Shown: positions 9,320-17,445 of the stretch, one piece after another
Position numbering within the stretch: position 1 is the first letter of the stretch
How the letters are laid out: every line of letters starts with the position of its first letter
Assembly: GCA_964578735.1 (NCBI GenBank)
Contig: CAZOEM010000009.1
Coordinates: 1 to 17,445 of the forward strand
Length of the DNA: 17,445 bases
From: an uncultured Halobacteria archaeon
Lineage (GTDB): Archaea; Halobacteriota; Syntropharchaeia; Alkanophagales; Methanospirareceae
Direction of reading: 5' to 3'
Made by a program: the position numbers and the translations under genes
The notes under the pieces: model-generated
The model's input: the letters and a program-made list of their open reading frames with translations, nothing else
Told to the model about the DNA's origin: nothing
Database searches by the model: none

Positions 9320-10420
9320 ATGAAAACTATTTATGATTCGATGCAAAAAAAAGCGAAGAAGATATTGCCATTGGTTGTTGTTGCCGTGCTATCTGTATCG
9401 CTGGGGTGTACAGTAGCAGTGGTAGCAGATTCTAGCTGTGCCTGTCATTCCTACATGGGCGGGCCTGACATTAATGCGAATTTTGAGACATCACTGCACC
9501 ACACCGGTGCGGGGATGAAAGGCGAATATGAGCGAGGAGCGGCAGGAGAATTCGACATTAATATGACTGAGTATTATGAGCAGTGGAACTGCTCTAGCTG
9601 TCATGCCAGCACTTGCGGAGATTGTCATGGGCAGTATGGAACTGAGACCACGACGGAGGGGCATGTTGGGGTAGATCCGAGTACGGATATGTCGACCTGT
9701 GACAAGTGCCACTATCTGAAACAGACCTCGATCTTTAAGGGGGAGCTACCAGGACATACCGGGAGCAAAAAACCGATAGTAGGTGACGTAATAGATCATC
9801 CGATGGACGTCCACTATGAGGAAGGGCTAACATGCATGGACTGCCATACTGCGGAAGAGATGCACGGTACTGGTGTTGAGTACACCACAATGCTAGAAGC
9901 AGTGAATGTATCGTGTGAGGATTGCCACAACAGTCCGGGAAAGACTGTCGAGATCAAGGGCGAGAACCTCTCGGTGACACAGTATTCGAATGATATCCCG
10001 TCACACAGAATACATGATAATCTCGACTGTACAGCATGCCACACAGGATGGGCGCCCAGATGTATAAACTGCCATTTAGATACTAGGGCAGGCTGGGGAG
10101 TACAATTGGATGACTTCCATCTTGCTATTGGCGCAGATGGTGATATACAACCATTCATGAAACAGGTGACAGAATATGCTAAGCCGATAGACAATATGAC
10201 CGAGAATATGACACATACAGGATATGCTGCGTGGAAGACACATACAGTTACAAGAGAGGCAAAGAATTGTACAGCATGCCACAGGAGCTCTGAAGCGCTA
10301 TGCGAGGGTTGCGAGGGTCAACAAATACTCGGAGAAGGAGGTTCATTTATACCACAAGAGATAATAGACTGGGTTTTAGCTATACCACAAGGGATATTAG
10401 ACAGGATTTCCAAGCCATAA
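9320..10420 (+). CDS. secreted octahaem c-type cytochrome, 366 aa
   Basis: GGAGGTGA RBS lies about 10 nt upstream. The N-terminal signal/anchor is KKAKKILPLVVVAVLSVSLGC. There are eight CxxCH motifs (CSSCH, CGDCH, CDKCH, CMDCH, CEDCH, CTACH, CINCH, CTACH) plus an N-terminal CACH. Seven N-x-S/T sequons are present. Confidence 0.85.
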   Translation: MKTIYDSMQKKAKKILPLVVVAVLSVSLGCTVAVVADSSCACHSYMGGPDINANFETSLHHTGAGMKGEYERGAAGEFDINMTEYYEQWNCSSCHASTCGDCHGQYGTETTTEGHVGVDPSTDMSTCDKCHYLKQTSIFKGELPGHTGSKKPIVGDVIDHPMDVHYEEGLTCMDCHTAEEMHGTGVEYTTMLEAVNVSCEDCHNSPGKTVEIKGENLSVTQYSNDIPSHRIHDNLDCTACHTGWAPRCINCHLDTRAGWGVQLDDFHLAIGADGDIQPFMKQVTEYAKPIDNMTENMTHTGYAAWKTHTVTREAKNCTACHRSSEALCEGCEGQQILGEGGSFIPQEIIDWVLAIPQGILDRISKP

Positions 10421-10498
10421 AAAAAAAGCCAACTGAACAAACAGAACGACAGAAATGTTAGTGACACTGTATCTTGCAACGCGCAAACATTAGAAATA

Positions 10499-10542
10499 GG
10501 GGCATGGGTCCTTGAGAACAGCTTGGACCCCCATTATTTTTT
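10499..10542 (+). terminator. hairpin plus T6 run downstream of the octahaem cytochrome gene
   Basis: GGGTCC (10506-10511) pairs with GGACCC (10525-10530) across a 13-nt loop, with extra flanking G/C and AT pairs. This is followed by ATTATTTTTT (T6 at 10537-10542). Confidence 0.4.
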
Positions 10543-10666
10543 CACTGTGCTGAAGATGCAAAACAAGAAGAGAAAAATCTTGATACCCAAAGTCTTGTGT
10601 TAATCTCGTGGTATCTTGTTGTTTAAAAAATAGAAGTTTTGAGCAAGAAAGAAGAGGTGACAAAAG

Positions 10667-11686
10667 ATGAACGAAAAAGGATCGGTGGTCAAACTGGACA
10701 AGCTGGATAAAGAACTGCTACAGCAATTACAGGACAATTTCCCGGTGCAGAAGAGACCCTGGACTGATTTGGGGAAGAAACTCGGAATCTCGGAGGACGA
10801 GGTGCTATCGCGCATACAGCGGCTTTCCGCAGATGGCGTTATCCGAAAACTCCGCACGATCCTGGATGCCAAAAAGTTGAACACCTGTTCTTCCACTCTG
10901 ATGGCGATGAAAGTGCCCGAGTCGAATATGGAAGGGGTTGTCAATGTCGTTAATGAATACATGAGCGTGACTCACAACTATCGCCGTGAGCATGACTATA
11001 ATCTCTGGTTTACCGTGACAACATGCGGTAGTAAAGACTTAGGAAGCACGGTGGAAGAGATAAAAAGAAGAACCGGAATCCCGGAGCACGACATCTTAGA
11101 CCTCCCTACTACCGCTGTGTTTAAGATTGACGTCCGCTTTAAATTTACCAATGGTGGTCTAAAAGCGATGAACGGGAACACTAACGGGAACACTAACGGG
11201 AACTCTAACCTGAACAATGCGGATGCTATAAATAAGGCCATTATATACAGCACGCAGGAAAGAATACCTCTAGTTGATGAGCCATTCGCGGAAATAGCAA
11301 AGGAGACGGGGATAAGTCAGGACGAAGTGATCGCGCGGTTAAATGAGCTGATAAGTCAGGGTGTTATCAAACGACTGGGTATTTCTATCAATCAGCGAAA
11401 GATAGGCATCGTGGCTAATGCGGTAGTGGCGTGGAAGGTGCCGCAGGAACAGGTAAAACGCGTTGGGACTCTGCTGTCCGCATATAGGGAGATAACCCAC
11501 TGCTACGAACGAGTGACCGTGCCCGGGAAGTGGGAATGCAATTTGTTCACAGTAATCCACAGTTACAATCGAGAATCCGTAGAAGAAACCGCGAGAATGA
11601 TGTCAGAAGCCGTTGGCATCTTCGACTATCTGGTCATGTTCAGTAACGAACAATTTAAACGGACCAGCGTTATGCACCCATACTAA
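10667..11686 (+). CDS. ahbAB: siroheme decarboxylase, fused AhbA-AhbB (NirD/L/G/H family, Lrp/AsnC-like fold), 339 aa
   Basis: There are two homologous halves of about 160 aa. Each starts with an HTH-like segment (LDKELLQQLQDNFPVQKRPWTDLGKKLGISEDEVLSRIQRLSADGVIRK and INKAIIYSTQERIPLVDEPFAEIAKETGISQDEVIARLNELISQGVIKR). Each is followed by the conserved THNYRR / THCYER and NLWFTV / NLFTVI segments of AhbA/B. An Asn/Gly-rich linker joins the halves. Confidence 0.8.
   Translation: MNEKGSVVKLDKLDKELLQQLQDNFPVQKRPWTDLGKKLGISEDEVLSRIQRLSADGVIRKLRTILDAKKLNTCSSTLMAMKVPESNMEGVVNVVNEYMSVTHNYRREHDYNLWFTVTTCGSKDLGSTVEEIKRRTGIPEHDILDLPTTAVFKIDVRFKFTNGGLKAMNGNTNGNTNGNSNLNNADAINKAIIYSTQERIPLVDEPFAEIAKETGISQDEVIARLNELISQGVIKRLGISINQRKIGIVANAVVAWKVPQEQVKRVGTLLSAYREITHCYERVTVPGKWECNLFTVIHSYNRESVEETARMMSEAVGIFDYLVMFSNEQFKRTSVMHPY
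11171..11218. repeat. 12-nt tandem repeat encoding the (NGNT)n linker of AhbAB
   Basis: AACGGGAACACT occurs twice perfectly (11171-11194). It is followed by AACGGGAACTCT and the degenerate AACCTGAACAAT. The translation is NGNT NGNT NGNS NLNN. Confidence 0.9.
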
Positions 11687-11704
11687 TTTGACAATGTCAA
11701 ATTA
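11684..11704. repeat. perfect 21-nt palindrome overlapping the ahbAB stop codon
   Basis: TAATTTGACA-A-TGTCAAATTA has 10-nt arms and a 1-nt centre. The TAA stop (11684-11686) forms the first three bases. Confidence 0.85.
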
Positions 11705-11762
11705 ACACGATTTTCAAGGTGGACCATATAACCGCAGGGTTATCTAGGTATATAAAGTATAA

Positions 11763-11799
11763 CTTCTGCCTATTTAGGACGCAGATTTACACGGATTTA
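11763..11799. repeat. intergenic repeat element, copy A (3' side of the radical-SAM gene)
   Basis: The sequence is CTTCTGCCTAT-TTAGGACGCAGATTTACACGGATTTA. It matches copy B at 13092-13142 apart from 3 substitutions and a 13-nt insertion in B. ACGCAGA (11780-11786) recurs inverted as TCTGCGT at 11817-11823. Confidence 0.8.
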
Positions 11800-11916
11800 A
11801 GGGATATAAATTATGACTCTGCGTTCGCCAGGAATTAATTATTATAACCCTCCAACAGAAAACGAAGTTTTTGGATGTAAATTAGCTGATTGGAACCATC
11901 CAATGCTTAGCCTTAG

Positions 11917-13038
11917 CTACAATTGATTTGCACCCGAAGGGTGCTTTCTTGTTGCCCGATTTTCATGCCCCCGGTAGGGACACCACGGCTCCTCGGCTAA
12001 ATAGTCGCCTTTTAATTCCCCTGGCTCTTGTAAACCGCCGCATACGTCTACGAAGCTCGTTAAGCCATATGCTCGCGCGCGACAGCCGCCGCAAATAGCA
12101 CGATATTCGCAAGTCCCGCACTTGCCTTTCAAGTTGTCTAAGTCACGAAGCGCTTTTAGTACCGGCGAATGGTACCATATATCGCGGAAATGCGTCTCTC
12201 GTATATTACCAAGTTTTATCGGTAGGTATGGACATGGGGTGACTTCGCCAGTGGGATAAATGCGGCAATATGCGAGCCCGGCAATACAGCCTCGCTTCCA
12301 CTGCTCCAGGCTCAATCCCTTTTGCGATGCAATACGCATAAATTGCGGTGCACAAACGGGCCTGATGTCGAGTTTATATTTGCACTCTGCTATCTTATCG
12401 AGGGTCTCATCAAGCATCTGCTCATACATGTCCGCGGATATATCTTCTATCGCTTTCCCCCTGCCGGTAGGCACGAGGAAGAAGAGGTGAAAAGAGCTTG
12501 CGCCATGCTCTTCTGCCAGCGCCATGATAGAATCAATTTCCGCATAGTTCTGCTGTGTCACTGTTGTATTCACCTGAACGGCTATATCGTGCTCTATGCA
12601 CGTGTCAATCCCTTCTAATGCACGTATCCAGGAACCTTTAACGCCACGAAATGCATCATGGCGCTCGGGGACAGAGGAATCAATACTGATAGCAACTGCC
12701 GATACACCGCTGGATTTCAATTCCTTCGCAACAGGGTCTGTTATGAGTGTTCCATTAGTGCCCATAGCAACTGTCAAGCCCTTCCCTTTTGCGTAACGAG
12801 CGAGTTCAAAGACATCAGCACGTAGCAGTGGCTCGCCACCACTCAGTATGAGGATGGGTTTGCTTACTTCTACTATCTGGTCTATCAGCATCTTCCCTTC
12901 TTCCGTGCTCAACTCCCCTTTTCCCGCCCTTTCTTCTGCATCTATATAGCAATGAGGACAGCGCAGATTACATGCGAAGGTCATGTTCCAGGAGATAAGC
13001 CGCAGTTGCGGCTGTTCTTGATTCTTCTCTTTTGACAT
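11917..13038 (-). CDS. radical-SAM haem-biosynthesis enzyme of the NirJ-like AhbC/AhbD family with a C-terminal SPASM/twitch Cys cluster, 373 aa
   Basis: CNLRCPHCY is the CxxxCxxC radical-SAM cluster motif, and ILSGGEPLL is a SAM-binding GGE motif. The C-terminal auxiliary-cluster cysteines are CPYLP...KGKCGTCEYRAICGGCRARAY. The gene is adjacent and convergent to ahbAB. Sequence alone does not let me separate AhbC from AhbD. My recollection that ahbD neighbours ahbAB in Methanosarcina barkeri weakly favours AhbD. Confidence 0.8.
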   Translation of the reverse strand: MSKEKNQEQPQLRLISWNMTFACNLRCPHCYIDAEERAGKGELSTEEGKMLIDQIVEVSKPILILSGGEPLLRADVFELARYAKGKGLTVAMGTNGTLITDPVAKELKSSGVSAVAISIDSSVPERHDAFRGVKGSWIRALEGIDTCIEHDIAVQVNTTVTQQNYAEIDSIMALAEEHGASSFHLFFLVPTGRGKAIEDISADMYEQMLDETLDKIAECKYKLDIRPVCAPQFMRIASQKGLSLEQWKRGCIAGLAYCRIYPTGEVTPCPYLPIKLGNIRETHFRDIWYHSPVLKALRDLDNLKGKCGTCEYRAICGGCRARAYGLTSFVDVCGGLQEPGELKGDYLAEEPWCPYRGHENRATRKHPSGANQL

Positions 13039-13370: not shown

Positions 13371-14063
13371 ATGAACAGTAGTAAATTGGTCCTTGTAGCT
13401 ATAGCGATTGTAGCAGTGGGGTTATTCGGTCTTCCGAGCAGCGTGTCGCTCTTCAGTGGGCAGCACACATGGTATGACCTAGGTGAGAGTGCGGGTAGTG
13501 ACGTTCCCTGTGAGAAGTGCCATGCGGATATAAACGATGAGATGATTGATGCAGACAATGGTATCCACGAAGCCTTAGCCGGGCCCGGATGCAACTGCCA
13601 TAGGATACCTTCTGAGGTACCCAATGTTGCTATAGGTGGTTACGGCGGTAAATCACCGGAACCAGGTACCACAGCTCACGCTGCGGAAACCATAGCTTGT
13701 ATGTTCTGTCATGAAGATGGTACAGTGTTTCCTTTCGCAGGTGGATTCAGTCAGGAGGCGGTTGAAGCAGCAGCAGGTGGTAGCACTACGCCATACACTT
13801 ATAGTAGTGGTGGCATAGGTGGAGAGCATGCAGCTCACAACCAGTTCATTGGACAGGCAATAGAGAATACGTTGATGGAAGATTCGAATGAAGCATGTAT
13901 CGCATGCCACACAAGGGTCGGTGTGGACATCCAGTGGACGAAGAATGTGGGTATGAACTTCCAGGCAAGAGAGAACGATCTCGGACTCTGGACAGTTAGC
14001 GACTTCACCGCGACAGGCCATGACCTAACGAATGTGTCTTATCCGAACGAATGGGTGACGTAA
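13371..14063 (+). CDS. small secreted multihaem c-type cytochrome, paralog 1 (3 CxxCH + 1 CxCH), 230 aa
   Basis: GGGGGTGA RBS. The leader is MNSSKLVLVAIAIVAVGLFGLPSSVSLFSGQHTWYD. Haem motifs are CEKCH, CMFCH and CIACH. CNCH aligns with the second CxxCH of paralog 2. The blocks AHAAETIACMFCHE and LMEDSNEACIACHT are shared with paralog 2. Confidence 0.8.
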   Translation: MNSSKLVLVAIAIVAVGLFGLPSSVSLFSGQHTWYDLGESAGSDVPCEKCHADINDEMIDADNGIHEALAGPGCNCHRIPSEVPNVAIGGYGGKSPEPGTTAHAAETIACMFCHEDGTVFPFAGGFSQEAVEAAAGGSTTPYTYSSGGIGGEHAAHNQFIGQAIENTLMEDSNEACIACHTRVGVDIQWTKNVGMNFQARENDLGLWTVSDFTATGHDLTNVSYPNEWVT

Positions 14064-14075
14064 ACCACAACCAAC

Positions 14076-14103
14076 TTTTTCCCTTTTTTATTTTTTGTCT
14101 TTT
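14076..14103 (+). terminator. oligo-T tract between cytochrome paralogs 1 and 2 (possible partial terminator)
   Basis: TTTTTCCCTTTTTTATTTTTTGTCTTTT begins 13 nt after the paralog-1 stop. Oligo-T tracts act as archaeal termination signals. Paralog 2 has its own GGAGGGGGGG RBS downstream. Confidence 0.4.
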
Positions 14104-14142
14104 GGATAGATAAAGTAGGAGGGGGGGCAAAGATAAGAAGAA

Positions 14143-14793
14143 ATGATCGGCAGTAAAATGGTTCTGATGCTGATAGCAGTAGTTGCAATAGGTATCTTCG
14201 CTCTTCCGAGCACGATGTCCATGTTCGGTGGGCAGCATACCTGGTATGACATTGCAAGTGACGGTGTACCATGTGTGAAGTGCCATGCCGATACATATGA
14301 AGAGTTCTCTCGGTCTGAGGTTCACTCATCATTTGCACGTAGAGACGCAAGTGATGCTTGTTATGCGTGTCATAGGGCGGACCCACATCTAACCTATGCA
14401 ACGGGTGGCGGCAGTAGTGCAACTCCAGCAGCACATGCCGCCTCCACAATTGCATGTATGGCATGTCATGAGTTCAATGCACATGTACGTGACAATAACG
14501 AAGGACCATTTGCTCATGGGTTTGAACAGCCCAGTGGCTCGCCGTTTTCCTATGGTGGCGTAGGGAGTCCACCACAAGGTAGCTTTATTCGCGATGGTAA
14601 TCATACACGACATAATGCATACGTTCAGGGTGCGGTAGATAGTGATTTGATGGAAGACTCAAACGAGGCATGCATTGCCTGTCACACAACCATACCAGTG
14701 GAAATAGACGGGGACATCGGGTACGCGATGCACTCGCAATCGGTCGCTGACCGTTTAGGCGATTGGACCGTTGGACCAGACAGTTCAAAATAG
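14143..14793 (+). CDS. small secreted tetrahaem c-type cytochrome, paralog 2, 216 aa
   Basis: The leader is MIGSKMVLMLIAVVAIGIFALPSTMSMFGGQHTWYD, in the same register as paralog 1. Haem motifs are CVKCH, CYACH, CMACH and CIACH. The 5' leader and first 36 codons are also similar to paralog 1 at the nucleotide level. Confidence 0.8.
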   Translation: MIGSKMVLMLIAVVAIGIFALPSTMSMFGGQHTWYDIASDGVPCVKCHADTYEEFSRSEVHSSFARRDASDACYACHRADPHLTYATGGGSSATPAAHAASTIACMACHEFNAHVRDNNEGPFAHGFEQPSGSPFSYGGVGSPPQGSFIRDGNHTRHNAYVQGAVDSDLMEDSNEACIACHTTIPVEIDGDIGYAMHSQSVADRLGDWTVGPDSSK

Positions 14794-15043
14794 TTTATCA
14801 ATCGTGATTATTAAGTTTTTAGGGGTTCATACATAGAATCGAAATTAAATGTTCCGTATCACTGTCCGTACCGAGCGTACAGAGGGAAGAAAGTCGTCAT
14901 AGTGACGATTGGTTGCTGCCACCGTGGAGCCAATCCTGATTCCGGCGCCTGAGTGAGGGGTTGTAGCGGTCCATCCAGGGAACAAAACAAAACAACAAAT
15001 ATTTATACACATAATACATAGCTAAGTTAAGAAAGGGGAAACA

Positions 15044-15805
15044 ATGGAACCAGTTATAGAAGCGGTGGTACCCGTTATTGCGGTTAGCGTATTCATAGCA
15101 GGGCTATTTTACGTTTTTTATTCGGTTGCGGTAAAAGGGTCTGAATCGCCACTGCGTTTCTATAACCACTTTGATAAAGGCTACCATGAGTATTCGCGTA
15201 ATAAAAAGGTAAAAGAAAAGATGATAGAATACAGGACCTTTTCGGGCGTTGGAGCCCCCTCTTTTTTGCGATCTGTCCTGCCATTCACCCTTTTTATCGC
15301 CCTTATACTCATTCTTCTATTCAAGATTGTCTTTTTCACTGTTATTGTCTCTGATAGTATGCAACCCACGTTCAAAAAGGGGGACCTTGTACTAATGCAA
15401 AAAATATCTACCGCGCCAGAGGCGGGAGACATAATCATGTTTGAGCAGAAGAAGATTATTCTTCCCGTTACGCATAGGGTTATCGCCGCAACTGATGAAG
15501 GATCAAAGACGGGGGGGGACGCGAGAGGGGTAACAGACCCCTGGAGTGTGCAAAACGAAGCGATCATGGCTAAAGCCGTGCAGATAGGTGGTAGACCCAT
15601 AGTACTGGAAGACGTTGGCAATTATTTCATTCTGGAGACAAGCGAAATGGGCTATAACCCCAACTATGGCTCGGAATATGCGTTTATGAAGGGTGTCTTT
15701 TCTCTGCTGCGCTTCTATGGGTATGTAGTGTGCGTTATTGCAGTCATGGGCTATGTGTTACTGTCTTTAAATGAGAGGAAGAGGAGGGGGAATGTACAAC
15801 TATAA
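15044..15805 (+). CDS. signal peptidase I, ER/archaeal S26B type (Sec11/SipW-like), 253 aa
   Basis: Box B is VSDSMQPTF (Ser nucleophile) and box C is KGDLVLM. Box D is VTHRVIA, with His rather than Lys as general base, which is the S26B hallmark. Box E-like is GGDARGVTDPW. There is a TM helix before the catalytic domain, a C-terminal TM helix, and an extra N-terminal TM plus a 60-aa loop. Confidence 0.8.
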   Translation: MEPVIEAVVPVIAVSVFIAGLFYVFYSVAVKGSESPLRFYNHFDKGYHEYSRNKKVKEKMIEYRTFSGVGAPSFLRSVLPFTLFIALILILLFKIVFFTVIVSDSMQPTFKKGDLVLMQKISTAPEAGDIIMFEQKKIILPVTHRVIAATDEGSKTGGDARGVTDPWSVQNEAIMAKAVQIGGRPIVLEDVGNYFILETSEMGYNPNYGSEYAFMKGVFSLLRFYGYVVCVIAVMGYVLLSLNERKRRGNVQL

Positions 15806-16118
15806 GCGGATGCTTCTCTTTATTGGTCTCGTAGCCGCAATTATCGCCGCCATGCCAAACACAATATCCTTGTTCGGTGGGGATCATACAATGCCACGAG
15901 AAGTCGCTTGTGACCGGTGTCATGAACCGCGCGAAGTGGGGTCTTCTGCTTTGGGCATGTACAGGGGTGATGAATCCTGTGCTAGTTGTCACCACTGCAA
16001 TCTAGCCAATTACACAGCGCTAAGAGAAAATGGCACGGGTGCATGTACGGAATGCCATGAAATTGGCCTCGGGTGTCCACGTGAAGGGAGATTTACAAAA
16101 AAGATACAAAATGACTGA
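15792..16118 (+). CDS. mini trihaem c-type cytochrome, paralog 3, 108 aa from the ATG at 15792
   Basis: GGAGGGGG lies immediately upstream of the ATG at 15792, and the gene overlaps the signal peptidase 3' end by 14 nt. The leader MYNYKRMLLFIGLVAAIIAAMPNTISLFGGDHTM shares its register with paralogs 1 and 2 (P22, S26, F28, G30, H32, T33). Haem motifs are CDRCH, CASCH and CTECH. Confidence 0.7.
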   Translation: MYNYKRMLLFIGLVAAIIAAMPNTISLFGGDHTMPREVACDRCHEPREVGSSALGMYRGDESCASCHHCNLANYTALRENGTGACTECHEIGLGCPREGRFTKKIQND

Positions 16119-16929
16119 TGATATGCCACAAACCAGGATCACAATGTCGATAACGGAAAAAGTAGGCCTGGGTATTACACTAATCATAGCAATATCCCTA
16201 ATTGGCTATGCCATATTTTCTTTGTTAATAGACCTACTATTGCTGCATTTGGATTGGTTCGCCATTGTGATCGATTTAATATCGCTCGCTATTGGGATCG
16301 CACTTGGCTATTTCTCCATTCGCATATATAAGAAATCGGTATATTACGAGGGATTAGTGAATTCCGCATTTGACGAGGGTATATATGCGCGATTGGAACC
16401 GGTACTGCGAAAAGTTGCGGAGACGCACGTGGAAATGGGTGGTTTAGAAAGTCGGTTAGATATAATTGATCGTAAAGTTCAAACAGTCATAGACGAGCAG
16501 GTGAACTTGGAATCGCAATTAGAAGTAGAAAAGGCAATTGCTCCGGGAACGTCTATGGGCTTTATAATAAAAACCATCCTCTTAGCCCTAATCACGATGT
16601 CCGGTTTTCTGTTCATGATCTCTACCTCAATAGGATATGCGCATTTTGCTACTCTTCTCTTTTTCATCCTCTGGTGGTTGCTCATATCTCATGAATTCAA
16701 ACTCTTTAATAACTCTGCTGCATGGGTGATGATCTTTGCCCCTATTCTTAGTGTTCCCGTTGGCTATATGATCCTGGATTGGAACCTCGGACTTAATCCA
16801 AACAATCTGGTTGCTCTCTTTTATCTCTGCCTCGTGTTATATGTCTTCTTATACTTCTGTTGGGCTGTATATGAGACAAAGGGGACGCTGCCTTTTAGTA
16901 GCCTTAATAGATATTTAAATAAGAAGTGA
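16111..16929 (+). CDS. hypothetical polytopic membrane protein (2 TM + about 80-aa coiled-coil-like loop + 4 TM), 272 aa from the ATG at 16111
   Basis: The start overlaps the paralog-3 stop (ATGACTGA, 8-nt overlap). TM segments include GLGITLIIAISLIGYAIFSLL, FAIVIDLISLAIGIALGYF, FIIKTILLALITMSGFLFMI, FATLLFFILWWLLI, AAWVMIFAPILSVPVGYMIL and LVALFYLCLVLYVFLYFCWAV. No family recognised. Confidence 0.6.
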   Translation: MTDDMPQTRITMSITEKVGLGITLIIAISLIGYAIFSLLIDLLLLHLDWFAIVIDLISLAIGIALGYFSIRIYKKSVYYEGLVNSAFDEGIYARLEPVLRKVAETHVEMGGLESRLDIIDRKVQTVIDEQVNLESQLEVEKAIAPGTSMGFIIKTILLALITMSGFLFMISTSIGYAHFATLLFFILWWLLISHEFKLFNNSAAWVMIFAPILSVPVGYMILDWNLGLNPNNLVALFYLCLVLYVFLYFCWAVYETKGTLPFSSLNRYLNKK

Positions 16930-16939
16930 AAAGAAAAAG

Positions 16940-16956
16940 CGAAAAGTTTTTAAATA
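16940..16956 (+). promoter_or_regulatory. BRE/TATA-like promoter of the terminal cytochrome gene
   Basis: GCGAAAAG followed by TTTTTAAATA closely resembles the histone promoter CCGAAAAGCTTTTATATA. It lies about 31 nt upstream of the ATG at 16987, implying a short leader. Confidence 0.45.
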
Positions 16957-16986
16957 GATGTATCCCTATACAAATACAACGGGAAA

Positions 16987-17445
16987 ATGAACAAAAAATT
17001 AGTCTGTGCTGTTATAGCCATAGTAGTAGTAATAGGGATGATAGCAGGCTGTGTTAAGGAGCCAGTGTCGAAAGAGCCGGTAGTGGTAACGCCGACTGTG
17101 GCACCAACCGCGCCACCAACTGCAAAACCAACCGCGCCGCCGATTATGGAAATGACGACAAGTTGTGAGATGTGTCATAAGACAGAATCGACAGCTGAGT
17201 TGGGTAAGCATGTAACGGGCGGGTTATTGGTCAATGGTAAACCAGGCTGTTTCAACTACTGGGGCTGTCATGGCGCGAATAATGCAACCGTACATACGGT
17301 CCATCCACCAGGGAAAGTTGGATGTGCAGCATGTCATGGCACGGAAGCACCTACGAAACCACCAATTGGTCCTGGCGGGACAACCTGTGAGCTATGCCAC
17401 GGGTATCCAAAGCCATTAGAGCCAAGCGAAGGAAACCTCGTTTGG
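16987..17445 (+). CDS. lipobox-bearing multihaem c-type cytochrome with Pro/Thr-rich linker, 5' partial (153 codons, runs off the window)
   Basis: Absent from the ORF track because it has no stop, so translated by hand: MNKKLVCAVIAIVVVIGMIAGC|VKEPVSKEPVVVTPTVAPTAPPTAKPTAPP.... Haem motifs CEMCH, CAACH and CELCH follow, plus CFNYWGCH. IAGC is lipobox-like. The frame stays open to the last base. Confidence 0.7.
   Translation, partial: MNKKLVCAVIAIVVVIGMIAGCVKEPVSKEPVVVTPTVAPTAPPTAKPTAPPIMEMTTSCEMCHKTESTAELGKHVTGGLLVNGKPGCFNYWGCHGANNATVHTVHPPGKVGCAACHGTEAPTKPPIGPGGTTCELCHGYPKPLEPSEGNLVW

What the first reader, a model, noticed from the sequence alone, without database searches (positions are those of the whole stretch)
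13371..17445. Candidate extracellular-cytochrome processing/assembly operon: three paralogous mini multihaem cytochromes coupled to their own S26B signal peptidase and a 6-TM coiled-coil membrane protein
Seen in sequence: the same strand carries, in order, cytochrome paralog 1 (230 aa), paralog 2 (216 aa, tetrahaem), an S26B signal peptidase, paralog 3 (108 aa, trihaem), a 272-aa polytopic membrane protein, and then a lipobox cytochrome with a Pro/Thr linker. The paralog-3 start overlaps the peptidase stop by 14 nt. The membrane-protein start overlaps the paralog-3 stop by 8 nt (ATGACTGA). This implies translational coupling and fixed stoichiometry. None of the three paralogs has a C-terminal anchor, PGF-CTERM-like tail or second TM, so after leader cleavage they would be free outside the membrane. 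Established knowledge (from memory): Bacillus tapA-sipW-tasA pairs an ER-type S26B peptidase with fibre subunits, and TasA-like archaeal bundling pili have been described. Polymerised multihaem cytochrome filaments are known from Geobacter (OmcS/OmcE/OmcZ), and tetrahaem-subunit filaments have been reported from Pyrobaculum calidifontis and Archaeoglobus veneficus. Inference: this cluster combines the two ideas. A dedicated peptidase would mature small cytochrome subunits that then polymerise or dock. Paralog 1 would be the major subunit, paralogs 2 and 3 minor or adaptor subunits, and the membrane protein plus the lipoprotein cytochrome a base or electron-input module. I know of no description of a peptidase-coupled cytochrome module like this.
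Basis: partly seen in the sequence, partly recalled or inferred. Interest (0 to 1): 0.85.

Follow-up and report, generated by a model that had tools for sequence, protein, structure and literature searches.

The report
ANME-1 nanowire-cytochrome genes with own signal peptidase
This stretch of a methane-oxidising archaeon (ANME-1) genome encodes relatives of a cytochrome known to form conductive filaments, next to a signal peptidase and a membrane protein; the cluster is already in the literature, but it offers candidate genes for how such filaments are made.

Summary

**What the genes are**
- Paralogs 1 and 2 are full-length homologues (E about 1e-38) of the Archaeoglobus veneficus cytochrome-filament subunit AvECN (PDB 8E5G). 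They keep all four non-motif histidines.
- Paralog 3 is a C-terminally truncated member of the same family.
- The peptidase is an active-looking archaeal-type S26B signal peptidase I.
- The 272-aa membrane protein is the '8x TMH' protein of Chadwick et al. 2022. That paper already describes the peptidase + membrane-protein pair in ANME, Geoglobus and Ferroglobus cytochrome clusters, including an ANME-1 cluster first highlighted in an earlier ANME-1 metagenome study. So the claim that this is undescribed is wrong.

**What I add**
- In 11 of 13 related loci the peptidase stop overlaps or abuts the start of an AvECN-family gene.
- The family's signal peptide and cleavage site (LPSTVS|LFxGQH) are unusually conserved.
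- Paralog 1 carries a conserved CxCH motif at haem site 2.

**Against a strict nanowire-operon reading**
- The A. veneficus AvECN locus has no peptidase within 10 kb.
- Most AvECN-family arrays lack one nearby.
- The membrane protein also occurs with a CcmF block alone.
- The six genes are probably several transcription units.

**Verdict:** new member of a known kind, moderate interest.

The parts
13371..14063 (+). P1: AvECN-family cytochrome, 230 aa. It has three CXXCH plus one CxCH, and four conserved non-motif His (H32, H66, H103, H156).
   Evidence: PDB 8E5G chain A, E 7.4e-38 over residues 1-205; conserved His columns; 8e5g is the only significant Foldseek PDB hit, although the model is poor.
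13371..13448 (+). P1 signal peptide (residues 1-26). The predicted signal peptidase I site is PSSVS|LFSGQH.
   Evidence: 129 family members. Proline at -5 in 124 of 129. Thr/Ser/Ala at -3 in 126. Ser/Ala/Thr at -1 in 129. F+1, G+3 and H+5 in 129 of 129. The hydrophobic region is also conserved.
13590..13601 (+). Non-canonical C-N-C-H at haem site 2 of P1.
   Evidence: CxCH sits at this position in 22 of 164 family members from ANME-1, Syntrophoarchaeum and Archaeoglobaceae.
14076..14103 (+). T-rich tract after the P1 stop codon; candidate archaeal terminator or attenuator.
   Evidence: Read. The inference rests on the established role of oligo-T in archaeal termination and was not tested.
14143..14793 (+). 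P2: AvECN-family tetrahaem cytochrome, 216 aa, four canonical CXXCH.
   Evidence: 8E5G chain A, E 1.8e-38 over residues 1-189; 56% identical orthologue in L002.
14794..15043 (.). 250-nt intergenic gap with a TATA-like TATTTATA at 15000-15007. In syntenic L002 this position holds three extra secreted-protein genes.
   Evidence: No Rfam family matches. Folding is no better than shuffles.
15044..15805 (+). Archaeal-type (S26B) signal peptidase I, 253 aa. By hydropathy it has three hydrophobic segments (about residues 5-27, 77-99 and 222-244). The catalytic residues are S105, H144 and D159/D165.
   Evidence: TIGR02228, 56.7 bits against a cutoff of 51.85; aligns to the SEC11A/C SGSM and HRV motifs; catalytic residues invariant in 58 homologues.
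15792..16118 (+). P3: truncated AvECN-family paralogue, 108 aa, three CXXCH. It keeps the family signal peptide and the LFGGDH motif. Its start overlaps the peptidase stop by 14 nt.
   Evidence: 27.5 bits against the family HMM; 59% identical orthologue in L002; it is the truncated form of the full-length peptidase-coupled paralogue seen in L039, L078, L018 and L032.
16111..16929 (+). 272-aa polytopic membrane protein, identical to the '8x TMH' protein of Chadwick et al. It has six predicted TM helices plus a helical hairpin at residues ~72-142. The motif WWLxIxxEF and the membrane-embedded D41 and D55 are conserved.
   Evidence: together shows that the locus-tag order BSM_13360/13380/13430 matches; no Pfam match; only 76 cluster representatives among 1.84 billion proteins.
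16987..17445 (+). Lipobox (IAGC) cytochrome with a Pro/Thr linker; partial. Orthologues are 175 aa with four CXXCH.
   Evidence: It follows the membrane-protein gene in 24 of the 36 related loci that hold that gene; many of the others are too short to tell.
9320..13038 (.). Upstream context, syntenic in relatives. It comprises a 366-aa multihaem cytochrome (9320-10420, +), an AhbA/B-like sirohaem decarboxylase fusion (10667-11686, +) and an AhbD/NirJ2-like radical SAM protein (11917-13038, -).

Best explanation
The region is the 5' part of the conserved ANME-1 (Methanophagales) extracellular-electron-transfer cytochrome island.

**Shown**
- P1 and P2 are subunits of the AvECN family, the tetrahaem cytochrome that polymerises into the A. 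veneficus filament.
- The next transcription unit encodes a catalytically intact S26B signal peptidase I. It is translationally coupled to a truncated AvECN-family paralogue (P3) and to the narrow-family membrane protein called '8x TMH' in the literature.
- A lipoprotein cytochrome follows. In syntenic contigs the island continues beyond the window with a 5-haem cytochrome, a 142-aa protein and a CcmF-type haem lyase.

**Inferred mechanism**
- AvECN-family precursors are exported by Sec and receive haem from the Ccm system.
- This peptidase, rather than or in addition to a housekeeping one, cuts them at the conserved site LPSTVS|LFxGQH.
- The cut frees an N-terminal arm whose invariant His is one of the four distal haem ligands. 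In AvECN three of the four haems take their distal His from another subunit, so release from the membrane-bound leader would permit polymerisation outside the cell.
- The membrane protein most likely works with the peptidase and/or the Ccm machinery inside the membrane. It is less likely to be an external anchor.
- P3 is a degenerate paralogue whose conserved part is the leader plus the LFGGxH arm. It could be a primer or cap, a competitor substrate, or simply retained for translational coupling.
For: - **Family membership:** (E ~1e-38 to 8E5G); four motif His and four non-motif His are conserved (H66 in at least 90%, the rest invariant). (PMC12203936): in AvECN three of four haems get their distal His from another subunit; the modelled 8e5g chain has 220 of 262 residues, consistent with a removed leader.
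- **Peptidase:**
- **Conserved coupling:**. In 11 of 13 related loci that hold the peptidase, and in the window, the peptidase stop overlaps or abuts (-1 to +35 nt) the start of an AvECN-family gene. The exceptions are L001 and L075. L001 (Geoglobus) still has peptidase, membrane protein and two AvECN-like genes side by side.
- **Conserved leader and site:**
- **Not the essential housekeeping enzyme:**. Cytochrome-free ANME-1 genomes lack this peptidase and the membrane protein.
- **Island continuation to CcmF:**
- **Precedents for dedicated peptidases in filament operons:**
Against: - The experimentally proven AvECN locus has no peptidase or membrane-protein gene within 10 kb.
- Only 14 of 79 AvECN-family loci have the peptidase in the flank.
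- The membrane protein also occurs with the lipoprotein-cytochrome/CcmF block without peptidase or AvECN genes (L101), and once in a housekeeping context (L096).
- In ANME-2 the pair is reported next to CcmF2 and a giant S-layer cytochrome. This fits a general cytochrome-maturation role.
- No ANME-1 filament of this protein has been seen.
- AlphaFold2 models of P1 (pLDDT 53.8) and of the membrane protein (pLDDT 68.8) are poor.
- Which His is donated between subunits was not checked in the 8E5G coordinates.
- The number of S26 genes in the source genome is unknown.
Confidence: 0.55

Rival explanations
1. The region is a general cytochrome c maturation island, as Chadwick et al. 2022 propose. 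The peptidase removes leaders from all or most multihaem cytochromes of the cell. The membrane protein is a haem-handling or Ccm accessory factor. The AvECN-family genes are merely neighbours in a cytochrome-rich island.
For: -: in ANME-2a/2b/3 the pair lies next to CcmF2 and ANME MHC-B, and both genes are lost together with all cytochromes and Ccm genes in one ANME-1 subclade.
- the membrane protein is followed by a lipoprotein cytochrome, a 5-haem cytochrome, a 142-aa protein and CcmF in at least 9 loci.
- L101 keeps that block without peptidase or AvECN genes.
- there is no peptidase at the AvECN locus.
- WW and one near-invariant His are conserved in the membrane protein.
- some homologues are fused to TPR repeats, with a weak match to the CcmH/CycH TPR family.
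Against: -: the peptidase is start/stop-coupled specifically to an AvECN-family gene across distant lineages.
- the AvECN-family leader is conserved far beyond what a generic signal peptidase needs.
- the other cytochromes of the island (366-aa MHC, lipoprotein cytochrome) carry lipobox-type leaders, not type I leaders.
- the membrane protein has no match to PF01578 or any other Pfam family.
Confidence: 0.3
2. P1-P3 are not filament subunits in ANME-1. Instead they are small secreted, monomeric or loosely associated electron carriers that shuttle electrons between the membrane and the S-layer cytochromes.
For: -: Chadwick et al. treat the small ANME cytochromes as possible intermediate carriers.
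- there is no confident structural model.
- P1 has an atypical CxCH site.
- genomes carry several paralogues each, which could have diversified in function.
Against: -: about 40% identity to AvECN over the full length.
- all four distal His are conserved, although in AvECN three of four haems are completed only by a neighbouring subunit. A monomer would therefore leave haems under-ligated.
Confidence: 0.15
3. The 272-aa membrane protein is the membrane anchor or base of the cytochrome assembly. The first reader proposed this, and according to Chadwick et al. it had been posited earlier. In this view P3 and the lipoprotein cytochrome form the electron-input module.
For: -: 8-nt overlap with P3.
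- the lipoprotein cytochrome gene lies immediately downstream in most loci with enough sequence.
- the anchor idea exists in the literature.
Against: -, read with the positive-inside rule: both termini and the ~70-residue helical hairpin are predicted to be cytoplasmic, and the outer loops are only 4-10 residues.
- No haem motif is present, and there is only one near-invariant His.
- P3 orthologues lose haem sites.
- Chadwick et al. argue against the anchor role.
Confidence: 0.12

Closest known systems
AvECN, the extracellular cytochrome nanowire of Archaeoglobus veneficus (PDB 8E5G; Baquero et al. 2023, Cell; paper not held, details taken from citing papers)
   Same: - P1 and P2 are full-length homologues, at about 40% identity by tblastn and E ~1e-38.
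- The leader, the four haem sites and the four distal His are at the same positions.
- The genes occur in tandem paralogue arrays, as in A. veneficus.
   Different: - P1 has CxCH at haem site 2.
- Both proteins lack the Asn/Thr-rich C-terminal tail of AvECN.
- Here the array sits next to a signal peptidase and a membrane protein, which the A. veneficus locus lacks within 10 kb.
- No filament has been shown for ANME-1.
ANME 'signal peptidase + 8x TMH' cytochrome-maturation gene pair (Chadwick et al. 2022, PMC9012536; ANME-1 cluster first highlighted in the earlier ANME-1 metagenome study that paper cites)
   Same: These are the same two genes in the same order relative to CcmF. BSM_13360, 13380 and 13430 correspond to the peptidase, the membrane protein and CcmF in syntenic L002.
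   Different: - The published account predates the AvECN structure.
- It does not, in the passages I read, link the pair to filament-forming cytochromes, to start/stop coupling with an AvECN-family gene, or to the conserved leader.
- I count six TM helices plus a helical hairpin rather than eight TM helices.
- I find homologues fused to TPR repeats in Thermoplasmata MAGs.
tapA-sipW-tasA of Bacillus subtilis, and the haloarchaeal Tafi cluster (TafD signal peptidase with helper TafG)
   Same: A dedicated type I signal peptidase is encoded in the operon of the fibre subunits it processes. Tafi adds an accessory protein proposed to assist the peptidase, and it has major and minor subunit paralogues.
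   Different: - The substrates here are c-type cytochromes, not jelly-roll pilins.
- The peptidase scores 34 bits against the SipW model, whose cutoff is 190.
- The membrane protein has no DUF5305 (TafG) match or any other Pfam match.
OmcZ/OzpA of Geobacter sulfurreducens and its archaeal homologues
   Same: A protease gene lies adjacent to a nanowire cytochrome gene, and the proteolytic step is needed before filament assembly.
   Different: - OzpA is a subtilisin-like protease that removes C-terminal domains from an octahaem precursor.
- Here the enzyme is an S26B leader peptidase acting at the N-terminus of a tetrahaem protein.
- There is no sequence relationship.

Membership tests
AvECN-type filament-forming tetrahaem cytochrome (PDB 8E5G) | Significant full-length sequence similarity to the solved subunit | tested here: met
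   P1 scores E 7.4e-38 over residues 1-205, and P2 scores E 1.8e-38 over residues 1-189. P3 alone is not significant against 8E5G (E 1.3), but it scores 27.5 bits against the family HMM.
AvECN-type filament-forming tetrahaem cytochrome (PDB 8E5G) | Four c-type haem attachment motifs at the conserved positions | tested here: inconclusive
   P2 has four CXXCH, so the feature is met. P1 has three CXXCH plus CNCH at site 2, and whether CxCH binds haem is unknown. P3 has only the first three sites.
AvECN-type filament-forming tetrahaem cytochrome (PDB 8E5G) | Four non-motif His that complete bis-His ligation. In AvECN three of the four haems receive theirs from another subunit. | tested here: met
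   H32, H103 and H156 are invariant, and H66 is present in at least 90% of 43 sequences, including P1 and P2. The literature basis is. In the alignment, P3 keeps only the first of these.
AvECN-type filament-forming tetrahaem cytochrome (PDB 8E5G) | Polymerises into an extracellular filament | not testable with these tools
   This needs cryo-EM or biochemistry, or multimer modelling with haems. The AlphaFold2 monomer was poor.
Signal peptidase I, archaeal/ER type (MEROPS S26B; NCBIfam TIGR02228) | Score above the curated family cutoff | tested here: met
   56.7 bits against a cutoff of 51.85. Pfam PF10502, 30.9 bits against a cutoff of 22.9.
Signal peptidase I, archaeal/ER type (MEROPS S26B; NCBIfam TIGR02228) | Catalytic Ser and His (not Lys), plus conserved Asp residues | tested here: met
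   SDSM and THRV align with SGSM and VHRV of SEC11A/C. S105, H144, R145, D159 and D165 are invariant in 58 homologues.
SipW-type dedicated fibre peptidase (NCBIfam NF046067) | Equivalog-level similarity to SipW | tested here: not met
   34.4 bits against a cutoff of 190. It may work like SipW, but it is not a SipW orthologue.
SipW-type dedicated fibre peptidase (NCBIfam NF046067) | Encoded in one operon with its fibre-subunit substrates | tested here: met
   the peptidase overlaps or abuts an AvECN-family gene in the window and in 11 of 13 related loci. Substrate cleavage itself was not tested.
ANME 'signal peptidase + 8x TMH' pair (Chadwick et al. 2022) | Same two genes in the same position relative to CcmF in an ANME-1 cytochrome cluster | tested here: met
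   One search gives the locus tags BSM_13360, 13380 and 13430. These match the gene order in L002, L005, L011, L027, L083 and L085.
Haem-handling proteins (CcmC/CcmF/CcsA, Pfam PF01578) | Profile match, and a Trp-rich WWD loop flanked by two conserved His | tested here: not met
   no Pfam match at E <= 0.1; the only candidates are WW inside predicted TM4 (W188, W189) and one near-invariant His (H178). This does not exclude a different kind of haem-related role.

The most novel reading that the evidence does not exclude
The S26B peptidase and the '8x TMH' membrane protein form the dedicated biogenesis machine of AvECN-type nanowires.

- They recognise the family-specific, conserved leader inside the membrane.
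- They cut at LPSTVS|LFxGQH and so release an N-terminal arm whose histidine ligates a haem of the neighbouring subunit.
- Leader cleavage would then be the switch that starts polymerisation at the cell surface.
- The peptidase-coupled paralogue (P3 here) would act as primer or cap.
- The CxCH site of P1 would be a new kind of haem c attachment, serviced by the island's own CcmF.
Probability: 0.3. Interest if true: 0.8.

Novelty: new member of a known kind. Interest (0 to 1): 0.5.

Why it matters
ANME-1 archaea oxidise methane by passing electrons to partner bacteria, and how they wire themselves to those partners is unresolved. A 2025 preprint on cytochrome nanowires states that how these filaments are secreted and assembled is unanswered. 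A 2026 review I searched names no biogenesis factors for the archaeal filaments.

This locus does three things:
- It shows that ANME-1 carries close relatives of a proven archaeal nanowire subunit.
- It places them next to two conserved candidate assembly genes, so the assembly question becomes testable: co-expression, deletion in Geoglobus, N-terminal mapping.
- It flags a conserved CxCH haem-site variant that may need a special haem lyase.

The cluster itself is not new, which limits the surprise.

Tried and rejected
- **Baquero et al. 2023 (the AvECN paper).** It is not held by DOI or PMC id. I could not check what it says about gene neighbourhoods or the first modelled residue. Statements about AvECN come from citing papers.
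- **AlphaFold2 of the membrane protein.** 44 sequences gave pLDDT 68.8 and pTM 0.36. Foldseek against PDB gave nothing below E = 1. A profile search against PDB sequences also gave nothing. No fold assignment is possible.
- **AlphaFold2 of P1.** 43 sequences gave pLDDT 53.8, which is too poor for interface analysis. Foldseek still returned 8e5g as the only significant hit, with TM only 0.32. I treat that as sequence-driven.
- **The 250-nt gap.** I looked for a structured RNA or a tRNA. There is no Rfam hit, no tRNA, and folding is no better than shuffles. Rejected.
- **The 366-aa minus-strand gene downstream in L002.** I tested whether it was the '8x TMH' protein. It has one N-terminal and one C-terminal hydrophobic segment only. 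Rejected. Supplementary locus tags then identified the 272-aa protein as '8x TMH'.
- **A type IV pilin-like (class III) leader.** The leader lacks the [KR]-[GAS] cut site before the hydrophobic stretch and has a canonical -3/-1 site after it. Rejected.
- **Metagenome scan with the membrane-protein alignment.** It reached only ANME-1-like relatives, 25 loci at 43-81% identity. ANME-2 contexts could not be examined directly.
- **Counting S26 genes in the source genome, or in A. veneficus or G. acetivorans.** This was not possible, because only flanks of matches can be fetched.

Full report
**1. Observation**

| Gene | Coordinates | Size | Notes |
|---|---|---|---|
| P1 | 13371-14063 | 230 aa | three CXXCH plus CNCH |
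| P2 | 14143-14793 | 216 aa | four CXXCH |
| S26 peptidase | 15044-15805 | 253 aa | |
| P3 | 15792-16118 | 108 aa | three CXXCH; 14-nt overlap with the peptidase; GGAGG-like Shine-Dalgarno sequence just upstream |
| Membrane protein | 16111-16929 | 272 aa | 8-nt overlap with P3 (ATGACTGA) |
| Lipobox cytochrome | 16987 to window end | partial | Pro/Thr linker |

Three details qualify the word 'operon'.
- A T-rich tract (14076-14103) follows P1.
- A 250-nt gap with a TATA-like TATTTATA (15000-15007) precedes the peptidase. The gap contains no Rfam family and folds no better than shuffles.
- A 57-nt gap precedes the lipoprotein gene.

Only peptidase-P3-membrane protein are demonstrably coupled. 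Exact-sequence look-ups and close homologues place the contig in ANME-1/Methanophagales.

**2. What the cytochromes are**

P1 and P2 match one solved structure: chain A of PDB 8E5G, the A. veneficus cytochrome filament. The E-values are 7e-38 and 2e-38, and the matches cover essentially the whole proteins. That protein is AvECN (AEA46122).

A family alignment shows the four haem-motif His plus four further conserved His (P1 numbering H32, H66, H103, H156). According to a review citing the structure paper, three of the four AvECN haems take their distal His from another subunit. A monomer of this fold would therefore be incompletely ligated. Conservation of all four His in P1 and P2 argues that they polymerise too. 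This is an inference; no ANME-1 filament has been shown.

P3 is a true but truncated family member.
- It scores 27.5 bits against the family HMM.
- It stops just after the conserved AGGF motif.
- It is the short form of a full-length (210-278 aa) paralogue that occupies the same position in Syntrophoarchaeum and other MAGs.
- Its orthologues in sister ANME-1 lineages retain three, two or one CXXCH. The leader and the LFGG[QD]H motif are always kept.

**3. The peptidase**

- It exceeds the curated cutoff of the archaeal signal peptidase I model TIGR02228.
- It aligns with the catalytic SGSM and HRV motifs of human SEC11A/C.
- S105, H144, D159 and D165 are invariant in 58 homologues.
- It falls far below the SipW equivalog cutoff.

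**4. The membrane protein**

- It has no Pfam or NCBIfam match.
- Its family is narrow: 76 cluster representatives among 1.84 billion proteins.
- AlphaFold2 gives six TM helices plus a long helical hairpin, at modest confidence. No structural neighbour was found.
- By the positive-inside rule the hairpin and both termini are cytoplasmic.
- D41 and D55 (inside TM1 and TM2) and the motif WWLxIxxEF are conserved as far as Geoglobus.
- Supplementary locus tags of Chadwick et al. (peptidase BSM_13360, '8x TMH' BSM_13380, CcmF BSM_13430) match the gene order in syntenic contigs. This protein is therefore their '8x TMH'.

**5. Neighbourhood conservation**

A syntenic Methanophagales contig (L002) has the same upstream genes: multihaem cytochrome, AhbA/B-like and AhbD-like haem biosynthesis genes. 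It then has three AvECN paralogues, three extra secreted proteins, the peptidase, P3, the membrane protein and the lipoprotein cytochrome. About 3 kb further on come a 5-haem cytochrome, a 142-aa protein and CcmF. The finding is thus the 5' part of a larger island that runs off the window.

In the complete genome of Geoglobus acetivorans, the peptidase, the membrane protein (27% identical, opposite strand) and two AvECN-like genes are adjacent.

A scan of one genome per GTDB species found 205 AvECN-family stretches, usually in tandem arrays of 2-5.
- Of the 79 loci analysed (76 kept from the scan plus the three fetched earlier), 14 have the peptidase and 11 the membrane protein in the flank.
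- Where the peptidase is present, its stop overlaps or abuts the start of an AvECN-family gene in 11 of 13 loci, and also in the window.
- The AvECN locus of A. veneficus itself has a radical SAM gene, AvECN, a five-haem paralogue and another cytochrome. It has no peptidase or membrane protein within 10 kb.
- The membrane protein also occurs with the lipoprotein-cytochrome/CcmF block alone (L101) and once among housekeeping genes (L096).

**6. The leader**

In 129 family members the N-terminus reads M-x3-K-[IL]-[VA]-L-L-x-[IV]-A-x-x-A-[IV]-G-x-x-[AV]-L-P-S-T-V-S|L-F-x-G-Q-H-x-W-Y.
- Pro at -5 occurs in 124 of 129.
- Thr/Ser/Ala at -3 occurs in 126 of 129.
- Ser/Ala/Thr at -1 occurs in 129 of 129.
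- F+1, G+3 and H+5 occur in 129 of 129.

This is a canonical type I cleavage site. The hydrophobic core is at least as conserved as the mature domain, which is unusual for Sec leaders. It suggests recognition by a specific partner in the membrane. The other cytochromes in the window carry lipobox-type leaders instead. The modelled 8e5g chain has 220 of 262 residues, consistent with leader removal. It does not fix the cut site.

**7. Mechanism**

Best explanation, about 0.55 for the functional part:
- AvECN-family precursors are exported, receive haem, and are cut by this peptidase at LPSTVS|LFxGQH.
- The freed N-terminal arm carries one of the four distal His, and subunits then polymerise.
- The membrane protein assists inside the membrane.

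The main rival, about 0.3, is the published view that the pair serves cytochrome maturation in general. The two views are not exclusive.

**8. Comparison with what is known**

- The gene pair and its association with cytochrome clusters are published.
- Dedicated signal peptidases in fibre operons are known from Bacillus (SipW) and from haloarchaeal Tafi, where the peptidase TafD has a helper, TafG.
- A protease-coupled cytochrome nanowire is known in OmcZ/OzpA.

In the literature I could search I did not find three things: the tie between this pair and the AvECN family, the start/stop coupling, and the conserved leader. I could not read the AvECN paper itself, so it may already mention neighbourhoods.

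**9. Verdict**

The locus is a new member of a known kind. Interest is 0.5. The cluster is not new, but it gives concrete candidate genes for the open question of how archaeal cytochrome nanowires are made, and it shows a conserved CxCH haem-site variant.

Noticed in passing
window 13590-13601 (P1 residues 74-77); also L002, L004-L007, L012-L020, L045, L046, L048, L066, L073: Haem site 2 of P1 is C-x-C-H rather than CXXCH. The same variant sits at the same position in 22 of 164 AvECN-family ORFs from ANME-1, Syntrophoarchaeum and Archaeoglobaceae. In the ANME-1 and Syntrophoarchaeum arrays it is usually the first gene of the tandem array. From memory, I know of no described CxCH haem c attachment motif. 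A CcmF gene lies in the same island in relatives.
   Followed up: partly
window 15792-16118; L027 13050-13397; L029 5550-5843; L039 8016-8645; L078 (minus strand): The gene coupled to the peptidase stop is a full-length tetrahaem AvECN paralogue in some lineages. In ANME-1 it is truncated after AGGFTNK, with three, two or one CXXCH left. The leader and the LFGGxH motif are always kept.
   Followed up: partly
L002 7538-9950, compared with window 14794-15043: The syntenic contig carries three paralogous secreted proteins (236, 275 and 225 aa; no haem motif, no Pfam hit on record) between the AvECN array and the peptidase. The window has only a 250-nt gap at that position.
   Followed up: no
L080 10001-11779 (A. 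veneficus CP002588): AvECN and the five-haem paralogue next to it share a nearly identical C-terminal stretch of about 75 residues (from NEACIACHTYVPVKINW onward). This suggests recent gene conversion or duplication.
   Followed up: no
P0269, P0277, P0281 (TPR fusions; Thermoplasmata MAG names for the clusters of P0277 and P0281); P0271 (1483 aa): The membrane-protein domain also occurs fused to N-terminal TPR repeats, and once inside a large beta-propeller/Ig-domain protein. The family therefore reaches beyond ANME and Archaeoglobi, contrary to the BLAST-based statement in the literature.
   Followed up: partly
L032 14632-15927; L033 12504-13652: Nine-haem proteins of 383-432 aa begin with the AvECN-type leader and an LF.G.H module. 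They sit between the peptidase-coupled paralogue and the membrane-protein gene. They may be extended family members.
   Followed up: no
window 10667-13038: An AhbA/B-like sirohaem decarboxylase fusion and an AhbD/NirJ2-like radical SAM/SPASM gene lie directly upstream of the cytochrome array. The radical SAM protein scores 376-382 bits, below the 500-bit equivalog cutoffs. The arrangement is syntenic in relatives, so haem synthesis, haem attachment and cytochrome genes are clustered.
   Followed up: partly
window 16057-16110: Public gene calls give the membrane protein 290 aa, starting at 16057, and one call gives P2 211 aa. Orthologue lengths and conservation favour the 272-aa start at 16111, which creates the 8-nt overlap with P3.
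   Followed up: partly
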